DNA of 32,000 bases from Candidatus Saccharimonadota bacterium (GCA_963706795.1 OY970170.1:330001-362000); one strand, 5' to 3'; counted from the first letter of the stretch, positions 1 to 32,000 are shown. Numbers and translations are program-made. The notes: a model not told the origin generated them from the letters alone.

Positions 1-624
1 AGCATCTGGACAGACTGATCTGACAGCTTGAAGGTCCGAAGCAAGTGGCTGATCCCCCGTCCACTTCCCTGTAATGATGAGTCCATCGGATCATTGCTCT
101 ATAGCACGAATAGCTGATTGTTCGAGAGAATCAGGATTGAGAATCTCAGAATGTTTTACGTGAATATCAGTGAATATCTGAATATGTTCAGCCTGAAGTT
201 GCTTGCGATATGCGAGAACTTCTGCTGGGTTTTCTGTGATTTCGTAGCCGTAGTGCGTTCGAATATGATCGACAAAGACAGGGATTCTCACAAATTGAAA
301 GTCAGCAAACCGTGCAATTGAGAGTGCACTCTTCCAGTCATTCCAGAGACAACAGATGCCGAGCGGTAGTTTTGTGGCCTTACGAAGTTCGATACAAATT
401 GCAGTGAATTGCACGAGTACTTCTGTATCGAGAAGTCTTGTATGTGGAAGATCGTAATTATTTTCGATCATGATAGCATCAATACCGCCATCGACGAGAG
501 ACTTGAGGTCTGCGAGTGCTTTTGCGAGAATGGTCTCGTGTGGAAGTGAGTCCTTAAAGCCAATAAGCGGAGGCAAATGGATCATTCCTATGATTGGATG
601 TTTTGATGGGAAGATTGATGGCAT
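1..624 (-). CDS. BtpA/SgcQ-family TIM-barrel protein (C-terminus runs off the left edge)
   Basis: ORF 91..624 (MPSIFPSKHPIIGMIHLPPLIGF...) ends at TGA 91-93. Read as Gly, the frame continues ...IEQ-G-SDGLIITGKWTGDQPLASDLQAVRSV to base 1. The IGMIHL-PL and (D)GhIhTG..TG pattern matches my memory of the BtpA family. Confidence 0.6.
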
Positions 625-629
625 GGAAT

Positions 630-2120
630 TTAGGTAAGTGCTTCGATTCGAGATTTCATTTTGTCACAGAGTTGTTTAACGCGCATCTCGGATATAGCTC
701 TTCTGGCTTTTGTAAATGCAGCGCGCAAGTAGAGAGGATTGATAATATCGTTGATGACAAAGTCATCTTGATCCATACTCCCATCTACCGTGAGTATAGC
801 CAAGGCTGTATTACAACAAACCAGGTTTATGAGATCTTCATTAGCTGTATTTGAGATAATATCAGCATTAGCAGTATTAATAAGTGTTTCATCTGATGGC
901 AATAAGGCTGATTCTATATTGATAGATACTCCAAAATCCTTGTCAGAGAGAACGTATTTTCACTTGTATTTACCATTTTGAACCACTCATACCACCGACC
1001 CAAGCGGCGAAAATTCATCAAGGCAGATTTCGGTATGGATATCTTCTTTAGAAATATCAGGAAGTTCGTTGTATCCGCCAACCACGAGGACATTTCAAAC
1101 GTTATATACATTTTTTTCATGAAGTACTTGATATGCTTCACTGATTGTCTGAAAGCGAATATTGTGATTAATTCCGAGAAGTTTATTGAGCTTTGTATCT
1201 TTACTGATAGGGGGTGTGAGGGGTCAGAGAAGATGGTTAACAGTCTCAGTACGCAAAACCTCTCCAGAAATATCATGAATAGACTTTGAAAGCTTGGCAT
1301 CTGTGAAGACATAGCCATCTTGTTCTAATAAATTTTGCGGCTGACTTGATGAATCAAAGGATACATTAAAACCAAAATCCCGAACAGCATCAGTTGATCC
1401 CACTGCAGTAGTATTTTTACCACTTCCATGCTTCATAGTTGGATATCCAAGGGAGGCAACAACAAAGGAAGCAAGGGTAGAAATATTCGCAGATTTACGA
1501 TTGCGAGTCTTATAAGATTGTTTAATTTCACGATCAGGCAAAACAACAGACTCCATCAAGAAGTTATAGTATGCCGTCAGATCAGAATCTTCTAACTCTG
1601 ACGAAAATCCTGTCTTAATTTTGTCATGGAGTGCAGCATATATCTCTCAAAAGTTTGAAACTCCAAATCCTATATCACCTCACATACCGCAAGTCTCCAC
1701 AATCATTGGGGCATTCACTATATACGTAAAATCAAGTCGTGTGGCCGCTACCATTCAAGCGATTTCTTCAGGGGTAATGAGATCTCTTTCTTCTTGAAAG
1801 CGCATAGTAAGAAGAAAAATCACAGCCTCCATCTCGAGCTCGTGGTACGACTTATTAGGACAAATCTTGTTTCTGAGCGTTGGATTATTCACCGTAACAA
1901 TACTCAAAGCACCAGCAAATGCTTCTGCATATGTGAGTGGGGTACCAGATTCAGCTTTTTGGATGAGCTCCATAAAGACACATTCTCTAGCTTGAACAAT
2001 AAGTTCATTATAGTCAGTCAGTTGTTCTTCTGTTAGATGAAAGTCTCGGATGGATTCTCTTGTGTTAATGCGCTCTGAAGACATAACTGGAATATGAAGA
2101 TTTAAATGGTACGAAATCAA
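630..2120 (-). CDS. Glycosyl transferase family 3 protein (anthranilate phosphoribosyltransferase/TrpD-like), about 497 aa
   Basis: Track ORFs 1755..2120, 1224..1559 and 630..902 share one frame. They are joined by 7 in-frame TGA codons (1755, 1680, 1647, 1224, 1095, 987, 960) with no TAA/TAG until 630-632. Motifs: ETCGM-G(TGA)-GD (TrpD D-T-C-G-T-G-G-D), KHGSGKNTTAVGSTD, NHLL-G(TGA)-PLTPP (GPLTNP). The true start may be the ATG at 2082-2084 (MSSERIN). Confidence 0.7.
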
Positions 2121-2139
2121 TTATTGTTCCATCAATAGT

Positions 2140-2183
2140 GAAAAAAACGGAAAATTCGCAGAAAAATTAACGAAAAGTTATTT
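2140..2183 (-). promoter_or_regulatory. Conserved about 45-nt leader/promoter motif, copy A
   Basis: GAAAAAAACGGAAAATTCGCAGAAAAATTAACGAAAAGTTATTT matches 4368-4413 at roughly 40 of 45 positions. It lies about 56 nt upstream of the ATG at 2084 on the minus strand. Confidence 0.45.
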
Positions 2184-29663: not shown

Positions 29664-30562
29664 TGACTTCCTCCTACAAAAAGGCTGTATTTTAGGGCAT
29701 CGAAGAGTCTCGATTTGTCCTCAGTAAGCTCGATATTGACGATCGAGTTTTTGACTTTTGCAGAGGCGATGATTCGAGAAGTTGGGAGACTAAATCCAAA
29801 TGGCGAGTTCATTTCGTAATGAACGGGTGTATCTGCAGTGTTATAGAGAACAAGGTAATTCTCTCCGTATGACTGGAGGAAATCCTCGAGTTTTTTGGTT
29901 GATTCGGAGAGAACTCAGGCGCTGTAGTCCTTCATACTTCATTCGTGGATCATCTGGGCGAGAACAGTTGAATCAGAGCTTACACCGATTTTTTTGTCGG
30001 GAGTTGCCTTGCCGGAGAGTCCAAAGGTCTTGCCGGTTGGATCGCTTCCAATCACATTCCAGACGAGCGGCCCATCCATCGAAAAGACGAATTCTTTGGT
30101 TGGTATGTAGGTATCAAATCCATTTGAAGCAGTAGGTTTTCGTGGATCTTTCCAGATTTTATCACTCACACGCGAGAGCTCTTTACCTTTTTCGTAAAAG
30201 AGCGGGATGATTTCAAATCCCTGTGATGCGATCGTACCAGAATAGCTTATGGCATTTCCGATAAGTGAATAGCTAATAAGCGGAGCTCGTTTGTCGTCAT
30301 TTTTTGTAAAGATTTTGCCATCTGTACTCGAAAAATCGAGATCATCTGCAAATCATTCTCGATGATTTTTGGTTTTAAGAAGCGCGTATTCCATAGCTCA
30401 CTCAGCAGCATGGTATGACGAAATCCCATCGTAGAGCGCCTTATTAATCTGATTTTCGGAGAGGAAGAGGAAGAGAATTCCAGCTGATAATACGATCAAA
30501 AATCCCGTGAGAAGCACGGCCATAATCGTTGAGAATCCTCGATTTGATGGAATTTTGCGCAT
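29660..30562 (-). CDS. PilX-like / minor pilin-like protein (300 aa)
   Basis: MRKIPSNRGFSTIMAVLLTGFLIVLSAGILFLF is a pilin-like N-terminal hydrophobic segment lacking Glu5, as in PilX-N. The frame is joined through TGA. TAA at 29660-29662. Confidence 0.5.
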
Positions 30563-31230
30563 TAGTGGGACTTATAAAGTTTTTCGGCGATGGTCGTCTG
30601 GACTGGAATAGTGAGCGCTTCAGCAATTTCGGTCGTAATTCCTTGGCGCGGTGCGGCGGTGAGCAAGAAAGTTATAGTTACCTTTCATTCAGAGTCCGCA
30701 TTATTGGCAAAAGTCTTCGAATCAACACCAGATATAAAAAATCTGAGTGTCTTGATCCGCACACTCTTGTCCGTAATACGTATACGCTCACCATCCGGAA
30801 GCTCGCGACCAAGATAACAATCAGTATCACTCGCAGCACATTTTGTAGGAAGCGAAGCAAGATTATCGTGCATAAGATAGTACGACAGCGTGCAATTTTG
30901 ACCGCCTCATGGACAATTTTCTGGGGCTACTTTTGTGATGAGCACATCCGTTCCTGAGCTCGTATAATTGGTTCGTCCCGCCATAACATTGCAGCCAGTC
31001 GCCACGGCATTCATCTGATCGTAGCAAGCAAATGCAATACCATTGTCACGAATATCTTTGGCGATAATCTCTGTCACATTTCTCGCATTTTCTTGGAGTG
31101 AGCGAGCAACAGAGAGGCGCTTATTGAGATTGATGATATTGGAATAGATACCAAAAACACTCACCATCACAAATGATAAAATAGTGACTGCGATAATAAT
31201 CTCTATGAGCGTGAAAGCTTTTTTGTTCAT
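30562..31230 (-). CDS. Prepilin-type N-terminal cleavage/methylation domain protein (pseudopilin), 222 aa
   Basis: MNKKAFTLIEIIIAVTILSFVMV is the classic G/A-F-T-L-I-E pilin signal. ORFs 30907..31230 and 30685..30873 are in frame. TAA at 30562-30564 overlaps the next ATG (TAATG). Confidence 0.8.
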
Positions 31231-31850
31231 TATTTTTTCCAGTCAGTGAGTATGGTGTGCATGGCGTATTCGCGATAATCTCACTCCGTCGTCGCGAGGA
31301 CCGCAGTAATTGCGAGCGCAGAAGGTACCACTCAGACACTATCTTTTACTTCCTCAATTTGAACAAAGGTGTAGTAGGGCGTGGATTTTGCACCGACGCA
31401 ATCGTGAGTATAACGTCCGAGTTCATCGATACAAAGTCTGATTTCGGAGCTTCCAAGTGGAGCGTTTGCCTCGGATGACACCTTTGTTTTCGCGTCAAAA
31501 GTACCGGTCGCGATCTTTTTAAGAGCGATGGGGCTTTGAGTTGTATAGCGGTTTTGGATGGTATAGTATCCAGGTGAAAGTTCGCAATTTGCAGCACTGC
31601 TACAGATCGACATTTCAGTGAGTCCTTTCAGGGAATTCCAATTGCGAAGCGCGAGGTAATTGGTATCGCGGATACTCTTTACGAGCTCCATCTGCTCGCG
31701 GATAAGATTGGCCGCAAGGATTTCTTGCTTGGAGCGAAGCGAGAGATTCATCGCGCTTCTCACGAGCGAGTAGGCTCACAAAAATCAGACAGTGAAGATG
31801 AGTATCGCCACCATGACTTCTATGATCGTAAATCCTTTGTGCGATCGCAT
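31230..31850 (-). CDS. Prepilin-type N-terminal domain protein (PilV-like), 206 aa
   Basis: MRSHKGFTIIEVMVAILIFTV-G-FL-G-AYSLV. It contains ORF 31332..31763. TAA at 31230-31232 overlaps the next ATG (TAATG). Confidence 0.75.
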
Positions 31851-31851
31851 A

Positions 31852-32000
31852 TTATTGAATGACGAAATTTTTAGCAAGCGACCCCGTAGCGACACCTTTG
31901 AGACCCACAATTCCACCACTTGCAGTGATCTGCGAAGTGGTATTTCGGATTTCGATCTTTCAGCTCGGAGCTCGGAAAATTACCATGATTTCTGGAGAGC
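31852..32000 (-). CDS. C-terminal fragment of a further protein in the pilin operon (N-terminus beyond the window)
   Basis: Open minus frame ...SPEIMVIFRAPS-G-KIEIRNTTSQITASGGIVGLKGVATGSLAKNFVIQ ending at TAA 31852-31854, 1 nt from the next ATG. Confidence 0.4.

What the first reader, a model, noticed from the sequence alone, without database searches (positions are those of the whole stretch)
1..32000. TGA is a glycine sense codon throughout the window (translation table 25)
Genes that look shattered in the standard-code track become single frames when TGA is read through. The TGA codons align with invariant glycines:
- LSG-G-EQQR, the ABC signature (4717-4719)
- VPV-G-DDQ in TrpRS (3442-3444)
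- G-DSL in the SGNH esterase (5678-5680)
- CGM-G-GD in the TrpD-like protein (1680-1682)
- T-G-VG in the HhH-GPD glycosylase (7190-7192)
- I-G-VHG, the KH GxxG (28148-28150)
- FG-G-SGS in both methyltransferases (21414-21416 and 22168-22170)

Every gene I traced ends in TAA or TAG. This places the organism among code-25 lineages (Gracilibacteria or Absconditabacteria/SR1) and invalidates any standard-table annotation of this contig.
Basis: partly seen in the sequence, partly recalled or inferred. Interest (0 to 1): 0.8.

Follow-up and report, generated by a model that had tools for sequence, protein, structure and literature searches.

The report
TGA read as glycine (code 25)
This stretch comes from a bacterium of the Gracilibacteria type that reads the usual stop codon TGA as glycine; this genetic code has been known since 2013, so the finding is correct but ordinary, and it matters mainly because public standard-code annotations of this organism are broken into fragments.

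Summary
The observation and the interpretation both hold. All eight cited codons are in-frame TGAs. Removing TGA from the stop set turns 61 short ORFs (71% coverage, mean 125 aa) into 31 long ones (92%, 316 aa). Removing TAA or TAG does nothing, and 13 standard-code control loci show no such gain.

In 27 genes there are 123 in-frame TGAs, and every complete gene ends in TAA or TAG. Opposite TGA, standard-code homologues carry glycine:
- TrpRS: 80/80.
- ABC signature LSGGQ.
- SGNH esterase: 5/5.
- HhH hairpin.
- KH GxxG motif.
- Methyltransferase motif I: 124 of 131 ungapped homologue rows.
- Three helicase columns: 81-97 of 97.

Pooled, TGA columns look like the window's own GGN columns (mean Gly 0.34 against 0.33) and not like its TGG columns (Trp 0.001 against 0.60). 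Against a related genome, 20 of 24 orthologous codon pairs involving TGA are TGA/TGA or TGA/GGN, and none is TGG. Code 4 (TGA = Trp) is rejected.

Both the chromosomal backbone and a higher-GC mobile/defence island use the code. This is a known code in a known kind of lineage, so interest is low.

The parts
3442..3444 (-). TGA codon 184 of TrpRS, in the motif LVPV-G-DDQ
   Evidence: In frame. Gly in three PDB TrpRS alignments, in 80/80 tblastn homologues and in 115/120 database homologues. The other 5 show 'W' and are code-4-translated recoded relatives.
4717..4719 (-). TGA codon 142 of the ABC ATPase, signature LSG-G-EQQR
   Evidence: In frame. Aligned to the second Gly of LSGGQ in all PDB alignments shown. 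The gene's other TGA (codon 126) aligns to Gly in 3 of the 4 aligned PDB stretches shown.
5678..5680 (-). TGA codon 41 of the SGNH/GDSL esterase, the G of GDSL
   Evidence: In frame. All five TGAs of this gene align to Gly in SGNH esterase 7c2a. Pfam Lipase_GDSL_2 scores 104.2 bits with Gly, 89.2 with Trp and 87.7 with X.
1680..1682 (-). TGA codon 135 of the TrpD-like (Glycos_transf_3) protein, CGM-G-GD
   Evidence: In frame. In five orthologues, 6 of the 7 TGA columns of this gene hold only G or code-4 'W' (= TGA). The NCBI Gracilibacteria orthologue has G at all six.
7190..7192 (-). TGA codon 127 of the HhH-GPD (AlkA-like 3-methyladenine glycosylase), hairpin G-V/I-G
   Evidence: In frame. 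Gly in 3/3 PDB alignments. Codon 84 is also Gly in 3/3. The other three TGAs lie in variable or gapped positions.
28148..28150 (+). TGA codon 49 of the Jag/KhpB-like KH+R3H protein, first G of the KH GxxG
   Evidence: In frame. Aligns to the G of LIGkrGqtL in PDB 3gku.
21414..21416 (+). TGA codon 390 of the ParB-N6/N4 DNA methyltransferase, first invariant G of the SAM-binding motif DxFxGSG
   Evidence: In frame. Gly in 124 of the 149 standard-code homologue rows (18 of those rows are gaps, so 124 of 131 ungapped). Columns 46 and 169 have Gly in 113 and 141 of 149.
22168..22170 (+). TGA codon 206 of the second N6/N4 DNA methyltransferase, same motif
   Evidence: In frame. Lies in a 53-nt repeat, 85% identical to the paralogous motif at 21402-21454, with TGA at the same codon. 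Gly is inferred by paralogy.
1..8455 (.). Chromosomal backbone, left part. Genes with in-frame TGA counts: BtpA 1-624(-) 1; TrpD-like 630-2084(-) 7; GNAT 2178-2882(-) 6; TrpRS 2893-3993(-) 1; ABC 4477-5142(-) 2; GDSL 5144-5800(-) 5; MFS 5793-6941(-) 3; HhH-GPD 6968-7570(-) 5; TfoX_N 7528-7905(-) 3; MGMT 7955-8455(+) 0.
   Evidence: Pfam on TGA->X translations. Coordinates and counts. The same gene lengths were called on the identical Logan contig L081.
9132..27374 (.). Island with mixed GC (0.39-0.56) that also uses TGA as a sense codon. Genes with TGA counts: unknown 9532-11334(+) 8; unknown 11419-12525(+) 5; probable membrane protein 12522-13499(-) 8; HamB 13532-16621(-) 22; HamA 16608-17777(-) 10; unknown 18185-19357(+) 2; unknown 19418-20158(+) 3; ParB-MTase 20247-21551(+) 6; MTase 21553-22302(+) 3; HTH/TerS-like 22305-22727(+) 2; TerL 22730-24217(+) 4; large serine recombinase 24277-25665(+) 6; Old-family ATPase 25773-27374(+) 6.
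   Evidence: Pfam, PADLOC, counts, GC.
27773..27862 (-). tRNA-Ser(GGA), the only tRNA in the window. It is not the UGA decoder.
   Evidence: ARAGORN. Rfam tRNA, 49.7 bits.
28004..31850 (.). Chromosomal backbone, right part. Genes with TGA counts: KH/R3H 28004-28516(+) 1; unknown 28518-29663(+) 2; three N-methyl (type IV pilin-like) proteins 29660-30562(-) 4, 30562-31230(-) 2, 31230-31850(-) 4.
   Evidence: Pfam, counts.

Best explanation
The window comes from a bacterium whose translation system reads UGA as glycine (NCBI translation table 25, the SR1/Gracilibacteria code). TAA and TAG are the only stop codons. About one glycine in five (123 TGA against 499 GGN codons) is written as TGA.

The same rule holds in housekeeping genes and in an integrated mobile/defence island, so the island is adapted to this code and could not be expressed intact in a standard-code host.

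Shown here: the sense reading of TGA, its glycine identity, and the use of TAA/TAG as stops. Inferred from what is established for these lineages: decoding is by a dedicated tRNA-Gly with anticodon UCA carrying glycine identity elements, and release factor 2 has been lost. Neither gene could be looked for.
For: 1. ORF statistics are specific to TGA and absent from 13 control loci.
2. All eight cited codons are in frame.
3. Residue-level alignments to solved structures put Gly opposite TGA:
   - TrpRS.
   - ABC Walker/signature region.
   - SGNH esterase, 5/5.
   - AlkA-like HhH, 2 invariant Gly.
   - Jag KH GxxG.
4. Pfam top-family bit scores are higher with Gly than with Trp for 5/5 proteins.
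5. Large alignments of standard-code homologues:
   - TrpRS column: Gly 80/80 and 115/120.
   - HamB columns 342, 511 and 571: Gly in 81, 92 and 97 of 97.
   - ParB-MTase columns 46, 169 and 390: Gly in 113, 141 and 124 of 149.
   - Pooled over 20 TGA columns, mean Gly frequency is 0.341. The window's own GGN columns give 0.325.
   - Mean Trp frequency at TGA columns is 0.001. The window's TGG columns give 0.596.
   - Summed log-odds are +23 for Gly and negative for every other residue.
6. A 64-codon table inferred from the same alignments gives TGA->G and the standard meaning for the rest.
7. Orthologous codons against the related genome GCA_049315825.1: of 24 pairs involving TGA, 4 are TGA/TGA, 16 are TGA/GGN and 0 are TGG. 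One example is MGMT, where FDFE-GGN-TDLQ in the window matches FDFE-TGA-TDLQ in the relative.
8. Composition: GGN alone is 5.4% of codons and 6.8% with TGA. TGG is 0.9% and would be 2.3% if TGA were Trp.
9. The closest relatives of TrpD-like, HamB and TrpRS are themselves TGA-recoded. One is named Candidatus Gracilibacteria and one 'gcode 4'.
10. Literature: UGA->Gly is established for Gracilibacteria and Absconditabacteria, with tRNA-Gly(UCA) and no RF2 (PMC8629427, PMC4032931, PMC10746230).
Against: - No tRNA with anticodon UCA was found in the window, its 2-kb left flank or the related loci. This is uninformative, because only about 34 kb of a roughly 1.27 Mb genome was visible.
- The presence or absence of prfB is unknown.
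- Roughly 40% of the TGA columns I could evaluate lie in variable regions where the modal residue of distant homologues is not Gly (for example K, A, L, N). The window's own GGN codons behave the same way (mean Gly 0.33), so this is expected and not contrary.
- Four of the 24 orthologous pairs are TGA/Ala, Phe or Leu. One search does not say which gene alignments these four come from; five of the ten alignments pooled there are short (33-44 residues) and low-identity (32-40%) and so are probably not true orthologues.
- No marker gene places the organism phylogenetically.
Confidence: 0.95

Rival explanations
1. TGA is read as tryptophan (translation table 4), as in Mycoplasmatales and several insect endosymbionts.
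For: Public pipelines translated relatives, and this very TrpRS, with code 4. The 'W' versions of TrpRS and HhH-GPD are the ones on record. Read-through ORF statistics alone cannot tell code 4 from code 25.
Against: - Mean Trp frequency at 20 TGA columns is 0.001, against 0.596 at the window's TGG columns. Summed log-odds for Trp are -22.8.
- No evaluated column has Trp as the modal residue in standard-code homologues.
- No TGA/TGG orthologous pair was seen.
- Pfam scores are lower with Trp in 5/5 proteins.
- Trp content would be an implausible 2.3%.
Confidence: 0.01
2. The standard code applies, and the genes are pseudogenes, sequencing or assembly errors, or chance ORF fusions.
For: Under table 11 the window is still 71% covered by short ORFs, and public records of this genome and a relative were annotated that way.
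Against: - Homology runs uninterrupted across TGAs in 20 or more genes with full-length domain matches.
- The TGAs sit at conserved Gly positions, not at random positions.
- An independent assembly from another sample is 100% identical over 8,548 bp, TGAs included.
- Relatives keep TGA or GGN at the same codons.
- Freeing TAA or TAG gives no gain.
Confidence: 0.01
3. TGA has a dual or context-dependent meaning: glycine at most sites but still a stop (or selenocysteine) at some, or a further codon change such as the CGA/CGG->Trp reported for Absconditabacteria is also present.
For: - Only 41 of the 123 TGAs could be evaluated against homologues.
- U34 wobble ambiguity between UGA and UGG has been discussed for these lineages, and CGG->Trp was predicted for some Gracilibacteria (PMC8629427).
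- CGG columns here are few (n=9), with K 0.21 and R 0.19.
Against: - All 26 complete genes end in TAA or TAG, and none needs TGA as its stop.
- Cys frequency at TGA columns is 0.003. Rfam reports nothing in the window at gathering thresholds, so no selenocysteine insertion (SECIS) element was found. That same scan also missed the window's tRNA-Ser, so this negative is weak.
- CGA columns (n=11) are modal Arg. CGG columns show Lys/Arg and no Trp.
Confidence: 0.03

Closest known systems
Translation table 25 in Gracilibacteria (BD1-5) and Absconditabacteria (SR1): UGA -> Gly (Campbell et al. 2013 and Rinke et al. 2013 as cited in PMC8629427; Hanke et al. 2014, PMC4032931)
   Same: - In-frame TGA at conserved glycine positions, and TAA/TAG as the only stops.
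- Small-genome Patescibacteria/CPR context: a 1.27 Mb contig carries the same MGMT protein.
- The closest relatives are recoded the same way.
- GC of 0.46 lies within the reported 0.21-0.53 range (PMC8629427).
   Different: Nothing mechanistic can be shown to differ.
- The decoder tRNA and the loss of RF2 were not testable.
- The closest public MAG is labelled only 'Patescibacteria group bacterium' and was annotated with table 11.
- No sign of the extra CGA/CGG->Trp change reported for Absconditabacteria (few columns).
Translation table 4 (Mycoplasma/Spiroplasma and endosymbionts): UGA -> Trp
   Same: TGA is a sense codon. ORF statistics look the same. Public pipelines use this table as a stand-in for recoded contigs.
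   Different: The amino acid differs. Here TGA columns are Gly (0.34) and essentially never Trp (0.001).
Phages and mobile elements of code-25 hosts that share the host's code (Liu et al. 2023, PMC10746230)
   Same: The island at about 9.1-27.4 kb (TerS/TerL, large serine recombinase, two methyltransferases, Hachiman, Old) carries 85 in-frame TGAs at Gly positions, like the host genes.
   Different: - It is integrated, not a free phage.
- I found no capsid, portal or tail genes.
- No relative of its TerL is in IMG/VR.
- Its type (prophage remnant, satellite or defence island) is not settled.

Membership tests
Translation table 25 (UGA = Gly) | TGA occurs in frame inside conserved protein-coding genes | tested here: met
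   123 in-frame TGAs in 27 genes, with homology continuous across them. The ORF rescue is specific to TGA.
Translation table 25 (UGA = Gly) | TGA positions align with glycine in homologues that use the standard code | tested here: met
   Of the 41 TGA columns I could evaluate, 25 are Gly-consistent and none has Trp as the modal residue. Nineteen of the 25 are columns where Gly is the modal residue of standard-code homologues. The other six are the TrpD-like columns, which hold only G or code-4 'W' (= TGA) in five lineage-specific orthologues that are themselves recoded or code-25-annotated. Pooled mean Gly frequency is 0.341, matching the window's GGN columns.
Translation table 25 (UGA = Gly) | TAA and TAG remain the stop codons | tested here: met
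   16 TAA and 10 TAG among 26 complete genes. Freeing either of them does not lengthen ORFs.
Translation table 25 (UGA = Gly) | TGA and GGN interchange as synonyms between orthologues of related genomes | tested here: met
   20 of 24 codon pairs against GCA_049315825.1. MGMT example. TrpD-like family.
Translation table 25 (UGA = Gly) | tRNA with anticodon UCA and glycine identity elements (G1:C72, C2:G71, G3:C70, U73) | not testable with these tools
   Only tRNA-Ser(GGA) lies in the window. No tRNA in L081-L083.
Translation table 25 (UGA = Gly) | Absence of release factor 2 (prfB) | not testable with these tools
Gracilibacteria / Absconditabacteria lineage | Phylogenetic placement by marker genes | tested here: inconclusive
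   - No ribosomal or other marker gene lies in the window.
- Best named hits are a Candidatus Gracilibacteria bacterium protein (49%) and 'uncultured bacterium (gcode 4)'.
- Named TrpRS hits are other Patescibacteria at 54-56%.
- The close relative is labelled 'Patescibacteria group bacterium'.
Translation table 4 (UGA = Trp) | TGA positions align with tryptophan | tested here: not met
   Trp frequency is 0.001 at TGA columns against 0.596 at TGG columns. There are no TGA/TGG orthologous pairs.
Absconditabacteria extended code (CGA/CGG = Trp; PMC8629427) | CGA and CGG columns align with tryptophan | tested here: not met
   CGA (11 columns) is modal Arg at 0.28. CGG (9 columns) gives Lys 0.21 and Arg 0.19, with no Trp. 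Sample sizes are small.
Selenocysteine recoding of UGA | Rare TGA at Cys/Sec positions, with a SECIS element | tested here: not met
   TGA makes up 1.3% of all codons across unrelated genes. Cys frequency at TGA columns is 0.003. Rfam at gathering thresholds reports nothing in the window, so no SECIS match; that scan also missed the window's tRNA-Ser, so the negative is weak.

The most novel reading that the evidence does not exclude
The organism belongs to a code-25 clade that public taxonomy and annotation have not recognised as such. Its closest MAG is filed as a generic 'Patescibacteria group bacterium' and annotated with table 11, and no homologue named Gracilibacteria is closer than 49%. 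It could lie outside the recognised UGA-reassigned orders, which would extend or re-date the origin of UGA->Gly. It keeps the reassignment at a fairly high GC (0.46 overall, up to 0.56 in individual island genes), where AT pressure cannot explain TGA use.
Probability: 0.08. Interest if true: 0.55.

Novelty: new member of a known kind. Interest (0 to 1): 0.2.

Why it matters
Biologically this adds one more genome, and one integrated mobile/defence island, to a reassignment known since 2013.

Practically it matters for annotation.
- The public records I could see for this genome and a close relative were called with table 11. They hold TrpRS as 183-aa and 136-aa fragments, and MGMT as 83-aa and 63-aa fragments.
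- Other pipelines translate TGA as Trp, which puts 2-5% spurious tryptophan into database proteins.
- Any functional, structural or phylogenetic use of these proteins needs table 25.

The island also shows that defence systems (Hachiman, Old), methyltransferases and a terminase/recombinase module in such hosts are written in the host's code. This limits their exchange with standard-code bacteria.

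Tried and rejected
- Source genome through GTDB species representatives, using TrpRS. The best match was 56% (Paceibacterota and a mislabelled MAG), and both are standard-code by ORF statistics.
- Exact-protein look-ups to reach the 1.27 Mb contig.
- Look-up of a Trp-translated window protein, to walk right of the window.
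- tRNA scans of the window, the 2-kb left flank, the related MAG locus and four relatives' loci. There is no tRNA(UCA); the tRNAs found were tRNA-Ser(GGA) and two tRNA-Trp(CCA).
- IMG/VR search for relatives of the island's TerL. Nothing found.
- Direct repeats that could mark attachment sites between 8.3 and 28.1 kb. Only short repeats of chance quality, apart from the paralogous methyltransferase motif.
- Rfam on the whole window at gathering thresholds returned nothing and even missed the tRNA-Ser. A targeted search recovered it.
- My first greedy ORF picks at 4562-5419(+), 5475-5753(-), 8047-8472(+), 8597-8788(-), 8893-9363(-) and 11781-13466(+) were rejected as antisense or off-frame shadows. 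Their translations are low-complexity or Arg-rich, and the real genes lie on the other strand or in another frame.
- I considered scanning metagenomes for a generic tRNA-Gly(UCA) pattern. I dropped the idea because a hit could not be tied to this genome.

Full report
**What is there.** The window is 32 kb with 45.6% GC. Trinucleotide counts already look odd: TGA occurs 598 times on the + strand, against 367 TAA and 293 TAG.

Under table 11, a greedy set of non-overlapping ORFs covers 71% of the window with 61 ORFs of mean 125 aa. With only TAA and TAG as stops, it covers 92% with 31 ORFs of mean 316 aa. Freeing TAA or TAG instead does nothing. Thirteen loci from standard-code genomes, analysed in the same way, have 88-99% coverage and 200-550 aa means under table 11 and gain nothing from freeing TGA.

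I translated with TGA as X, which is neutral between Gly and Trp, and annotated with Pfam. This gives a coherent map of 27 genes:

- **Left backbone:** BtpA, a TrpD-like Glycos_transf_3 protein, a GNAT, TrpRS, an ABC ATPase, a GDSL/SGNH esterase, an MFS transporter, an AlkA-like HhH-GPD glycosylase, a TfoX_N protein and MGMT.
- **Island:** two unknown proteins, a HamB helicase and HamA, two more unknown proteins, a ParB-N6/N4 methyltransferase, a second methyltransferase, a small HTH (TerS-like) protein, a large terminase, a large serine recombinase and an Old-family ATPase.
- **After the island:** tRNA-Ser(GGA).
- **Right backbone:** a KH/R3H (Jag/KhpB-like) protein, one unknown protein and three N-methyl pilin-like proteins.

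These 27 genes hold 123 in-frame TGAs in 9,200 codons. All 26 genes with a 3' end in the window stop at TAA (16) or TAG (10). Two further probable genes (9132-9572, and a membrane protein at 12522-13499) add about ten more TGAs.

Every one is a TGA in the frame of the named gene, in the quoted context.

**Which amino acid.** Seven independent lines of evidence agree on glycine.

1. **Alignments to solved structures**
   - TrpRS: LVPV-x-DDQLP against lvpvGddqlp.
   - ABC ATPase: LSG-x-EQQRV against lsgGqqqrv. The gene's other TGA is opposite Gly in 3 of 4 alignments.
   - SGNH esterase: all five TGAs are opposite Gly in 7c2a, including the G of GDSL.
   - HhH-GPD: both conserved positions (rsa-x-LS and the hairpin x-VG) are Gly in 3/3. 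The other three TGAs lie in variable or gapped positions.
   - KH: LI-x-VHGQTL against LIGkrGqtL of 3gku.

2. **Pfam bit scores.** The top family scores higher with Gly than with Trp for all five proteins tested (the X baseline is).

   | Protein | Gly | Trp | X |
   |---|---|---|---|
   | GDSL_2 | 104.2 | 89.2 | 87.7 |
   | HhH-GPD | 65.6 | 61.1 | 61.4 |
   | Glycos_transf_3 | 66.2 | 63.1 | 61.7 |
   | MFS_1 | 180.8 | 178.2 | 174.7 |
   | GNAT | 27.9 | 26.4 | 26.4 |

3. **Large alignments of homologues**
   - TrpRS: the TGA column is Gly in 80/80 tblastn homologues from GTDB genomes and in 115/120 database homologues.
   - HamB: among 97 standard-code homologues, TGA columns 342, 511 and 571 are Gly in 81, 92 and 97.
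   - ParB-methyltransferase: columns 46, 169 and 390 are Gly in 113, 141 and 124 of 149.
   - Pooled over the 20 TGA columns of HamB and the methyltransferase, mean Gly frequency is 0.341. That is 7.8 times the frequency in other columns and equal to the 0.325 of the window's own GGN columns.
   - Mean Trp frequency at those columns is 0.001, against 0.596 at the window's TGG columns.
   - Summed log-odds are +23 for Gly and negative for all 19 other residues.

4. **A 64-codon table.** Inferred from the same alignments, it gives TGA -> G (0.37) and the standard meaning elsewhere. A few small-sample columns show conservative swaps. CGA is modal Arg, and CGG gives Lys/Arg with no Trp. So the extra CGA/CGG -> Trp change reported for Absconditabacteria (PMC8629427) is not seen, although the columns are few.

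5. **Orthologous codons.** A relative, GCA_049315825.1 ('Patescibacteria group bacterium'), has five orthologues at 66-89% amino-acid identity. It gives 24 codon pairs involving TGA: 4 TGA/TGA, 16 TGA/GGN, 2 TGA/GCN, 1 TTC and 1 CTT. None is TGG. In MGMT, the only window gene without a TGA, the window's FDFE-G-TDLQ (GGN) corresponds to FDFE-TGA-TDLQ in the relative, and NCBI's table-11 annotation cut that protein there.

6. **The lineage-specific TrpD-like family.** Six of the seven TGA columns hold only G or, in code-4-translated relatives, 'W' (= TGA). Conversely, 33 of the relatives' 'W' residues fall on the window's GGN glycines.

7. **Composition.** GGN is 5.4% of codons, or 6.8% with TGA. 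TGG is 0.9% and would be 2.3% if TGA were Trp.

**Scope.** The code holds in the backbone (46 TGAs in 3,865 codons), in the low-GC Hachiman pair (32 in 1,418) and in the rest of the island (GC up to 0.56; 45 in 3,917). The phrase 'throughout the window' is therefore justified.

**Rivals.** Code 4 fails every residue-level test. Pseudogenes or sequencing errors are excluded for three reasons: homology runs across the TGAs; an independent assembly is 100% identical over 8,548 bp; and relatives conserve TGA or GGN at the same codons. Selenocysteine is excluded by the abundance of TGA and by the absence of Cys at TGA columns. A dual meaning for TGA cannot be strictly excluded, but nothing requires it.

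**What it is compared with what is known.** UGA -> Gly is the established code of Gracilibacteria (BD1-5) and Absconditabacteria (SR1). It goes with a tRNA-Gly(UCA) and no RF2, and the reported GC range is 0.21-0.53 (PMC8629427, PMC4032931). Phages sharing that code are also described (PMC10746230). The sense reading, the Gly identity, the TAA/TAG stops and TGA/GGN synonymy were all tested here and met.

The decoder tRNA and the loss of RF2 could not be tested. The window has only tRNA-Ser(GGA).

Lineage placement is only indicative:
- The best named hits are 'Candidatus Gracilibacteria bacterium' (49%) and 'uncultured bacterium (gcode 4)'.
- The nearest TrpRS and HamB relatives all show the Trp-excess, Gly-deficit signature of recoded genomes translated with code 4.
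- Named TrpRS hits are other Patescibacteria at 54-56%.

**Verdict.** It is a correct identification of a known alternative code in one more genome, so novelty is low and I set interest at 0.2.

Its real value is practical. Public protein records for this genome are table-11 fragments (TrpRS as 183 aa ending at the TGA, plus 136 aa). Those of its relative are likewise fragmented. Other pipelines substitute Trp at TGA.

Noticed in passing
window 8456-27900: An apparent integrated island lies between MGMT and tRNA-Ser(GGA).
- GC is 0.47-0.56 for most of its genes, against 0.36-0.47 in the backbone.
- It encodes a large serine recombinase (24277-25665), an HTH/TerS-like protein plus TerL (22305-24217), two N6/N4 methyltransferases (one fused to ParB_N), Hachiman and an Old-family ATPase. 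I found no capsid, portal or tail genes.
- An identical Logan contig from another sample ends at window position 8548.
- The related MAG's contig ends inside MGMT.
Both contig ends suggest a variable junction here.
   Followed up: partly
window 13532-17777 (-): A Hachiman anti-phage system. HamB is a 1029-aa helicase (PADLOC HamB1, 311 bits). HamA matches DUF1837/PF08878 (PADLOC HamA1, 67 bits). Its 23 closest HamB homologues all come from TGA-recoded genomes, and there too HamA sits directly upstream. The pair therefore seems to circulate within the code-25 gene pool.
   Followed up: partly
window 25773-27374 (+): An Old-family (ATPase + Toprim-like) defence nuclease. PADLOC Old scores 224 bits and Pfam AAA_15 scores 117 bits. 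It lies immediately next to the recombinase.
   Followed up: partly
L084 (ENA ERZ27264759), L087 (JGI 3300056624) and the window: The share of glycine codons written as TGA rises as GC falls: 20% in the window (GC 0.46), 47% in L087 (GC 0.33) and 65% in L084 (GC 0.24). In some HamB homologues, code-4 translation gives Trp 4.4-4.8% and Gly 0.2-0.3%, which means nearly every glycine of that gene is TGA.
   Followed up: partly
protein collection entries P0127-P0130 and P0122-P0123; loci L081 and L082: Public translations of this organism are inconsistent. Logan calls use code 4, so the 'W' versions of TrpRS and HhH-GPD are on record and the 'G' versions are not. The NCBI/ENA records use table 11 and hold fragments: TrpRS as 183 + 136 aa, and a relative's MGMT as 83 + 63 aa (MFZ4461372/3).
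   Followed up: yes
window 21402-21454 and 22156-22208: The two adjacent methyltransferase genes share a 53-nt stretch at 85% identity. It covers SAM-binding motif I, with TGA at the same codon in both. They are diverged tandem paralogues.
   Followed up: no
window 8456-9131: About 675 bp between MGMT and the first island gene has no convincing ORF in any frame under either code, and no Rfam match at gathering thresholds. It is a candidate junction or attachment region. No matching direct repeat was found near the tRNA-Ser.
   Followed up: partly
window 27773-27862: The whole-window Rfam scan at gathering thresholds returned nothing, although the tRNA-Ser scores 49.7 bits (threshold 29) in a targeted scan. 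The fast filters lost it, so 'no Rfam match' for the whole window is weaker than it looks.
   Followed up: yes
L087 3819-3893 and 17810-17881: In a 1.08 Mb recoded JGI contig, two tRNA-Trp(CCA) genes each sit next to a resolvase-domain gene. Together they bracket a block that contains HamA/HamB and a Schlafen-like helicase. This resembles the window's island, with a recombinase next to a tRNA gene.
   Followed up: no
window 29660-31850 (-): Three consecutive genes with N-terminal methylation motifs (type IV pilin or pseudopilin-like). The last two overlap by one base.
   Followed up: no
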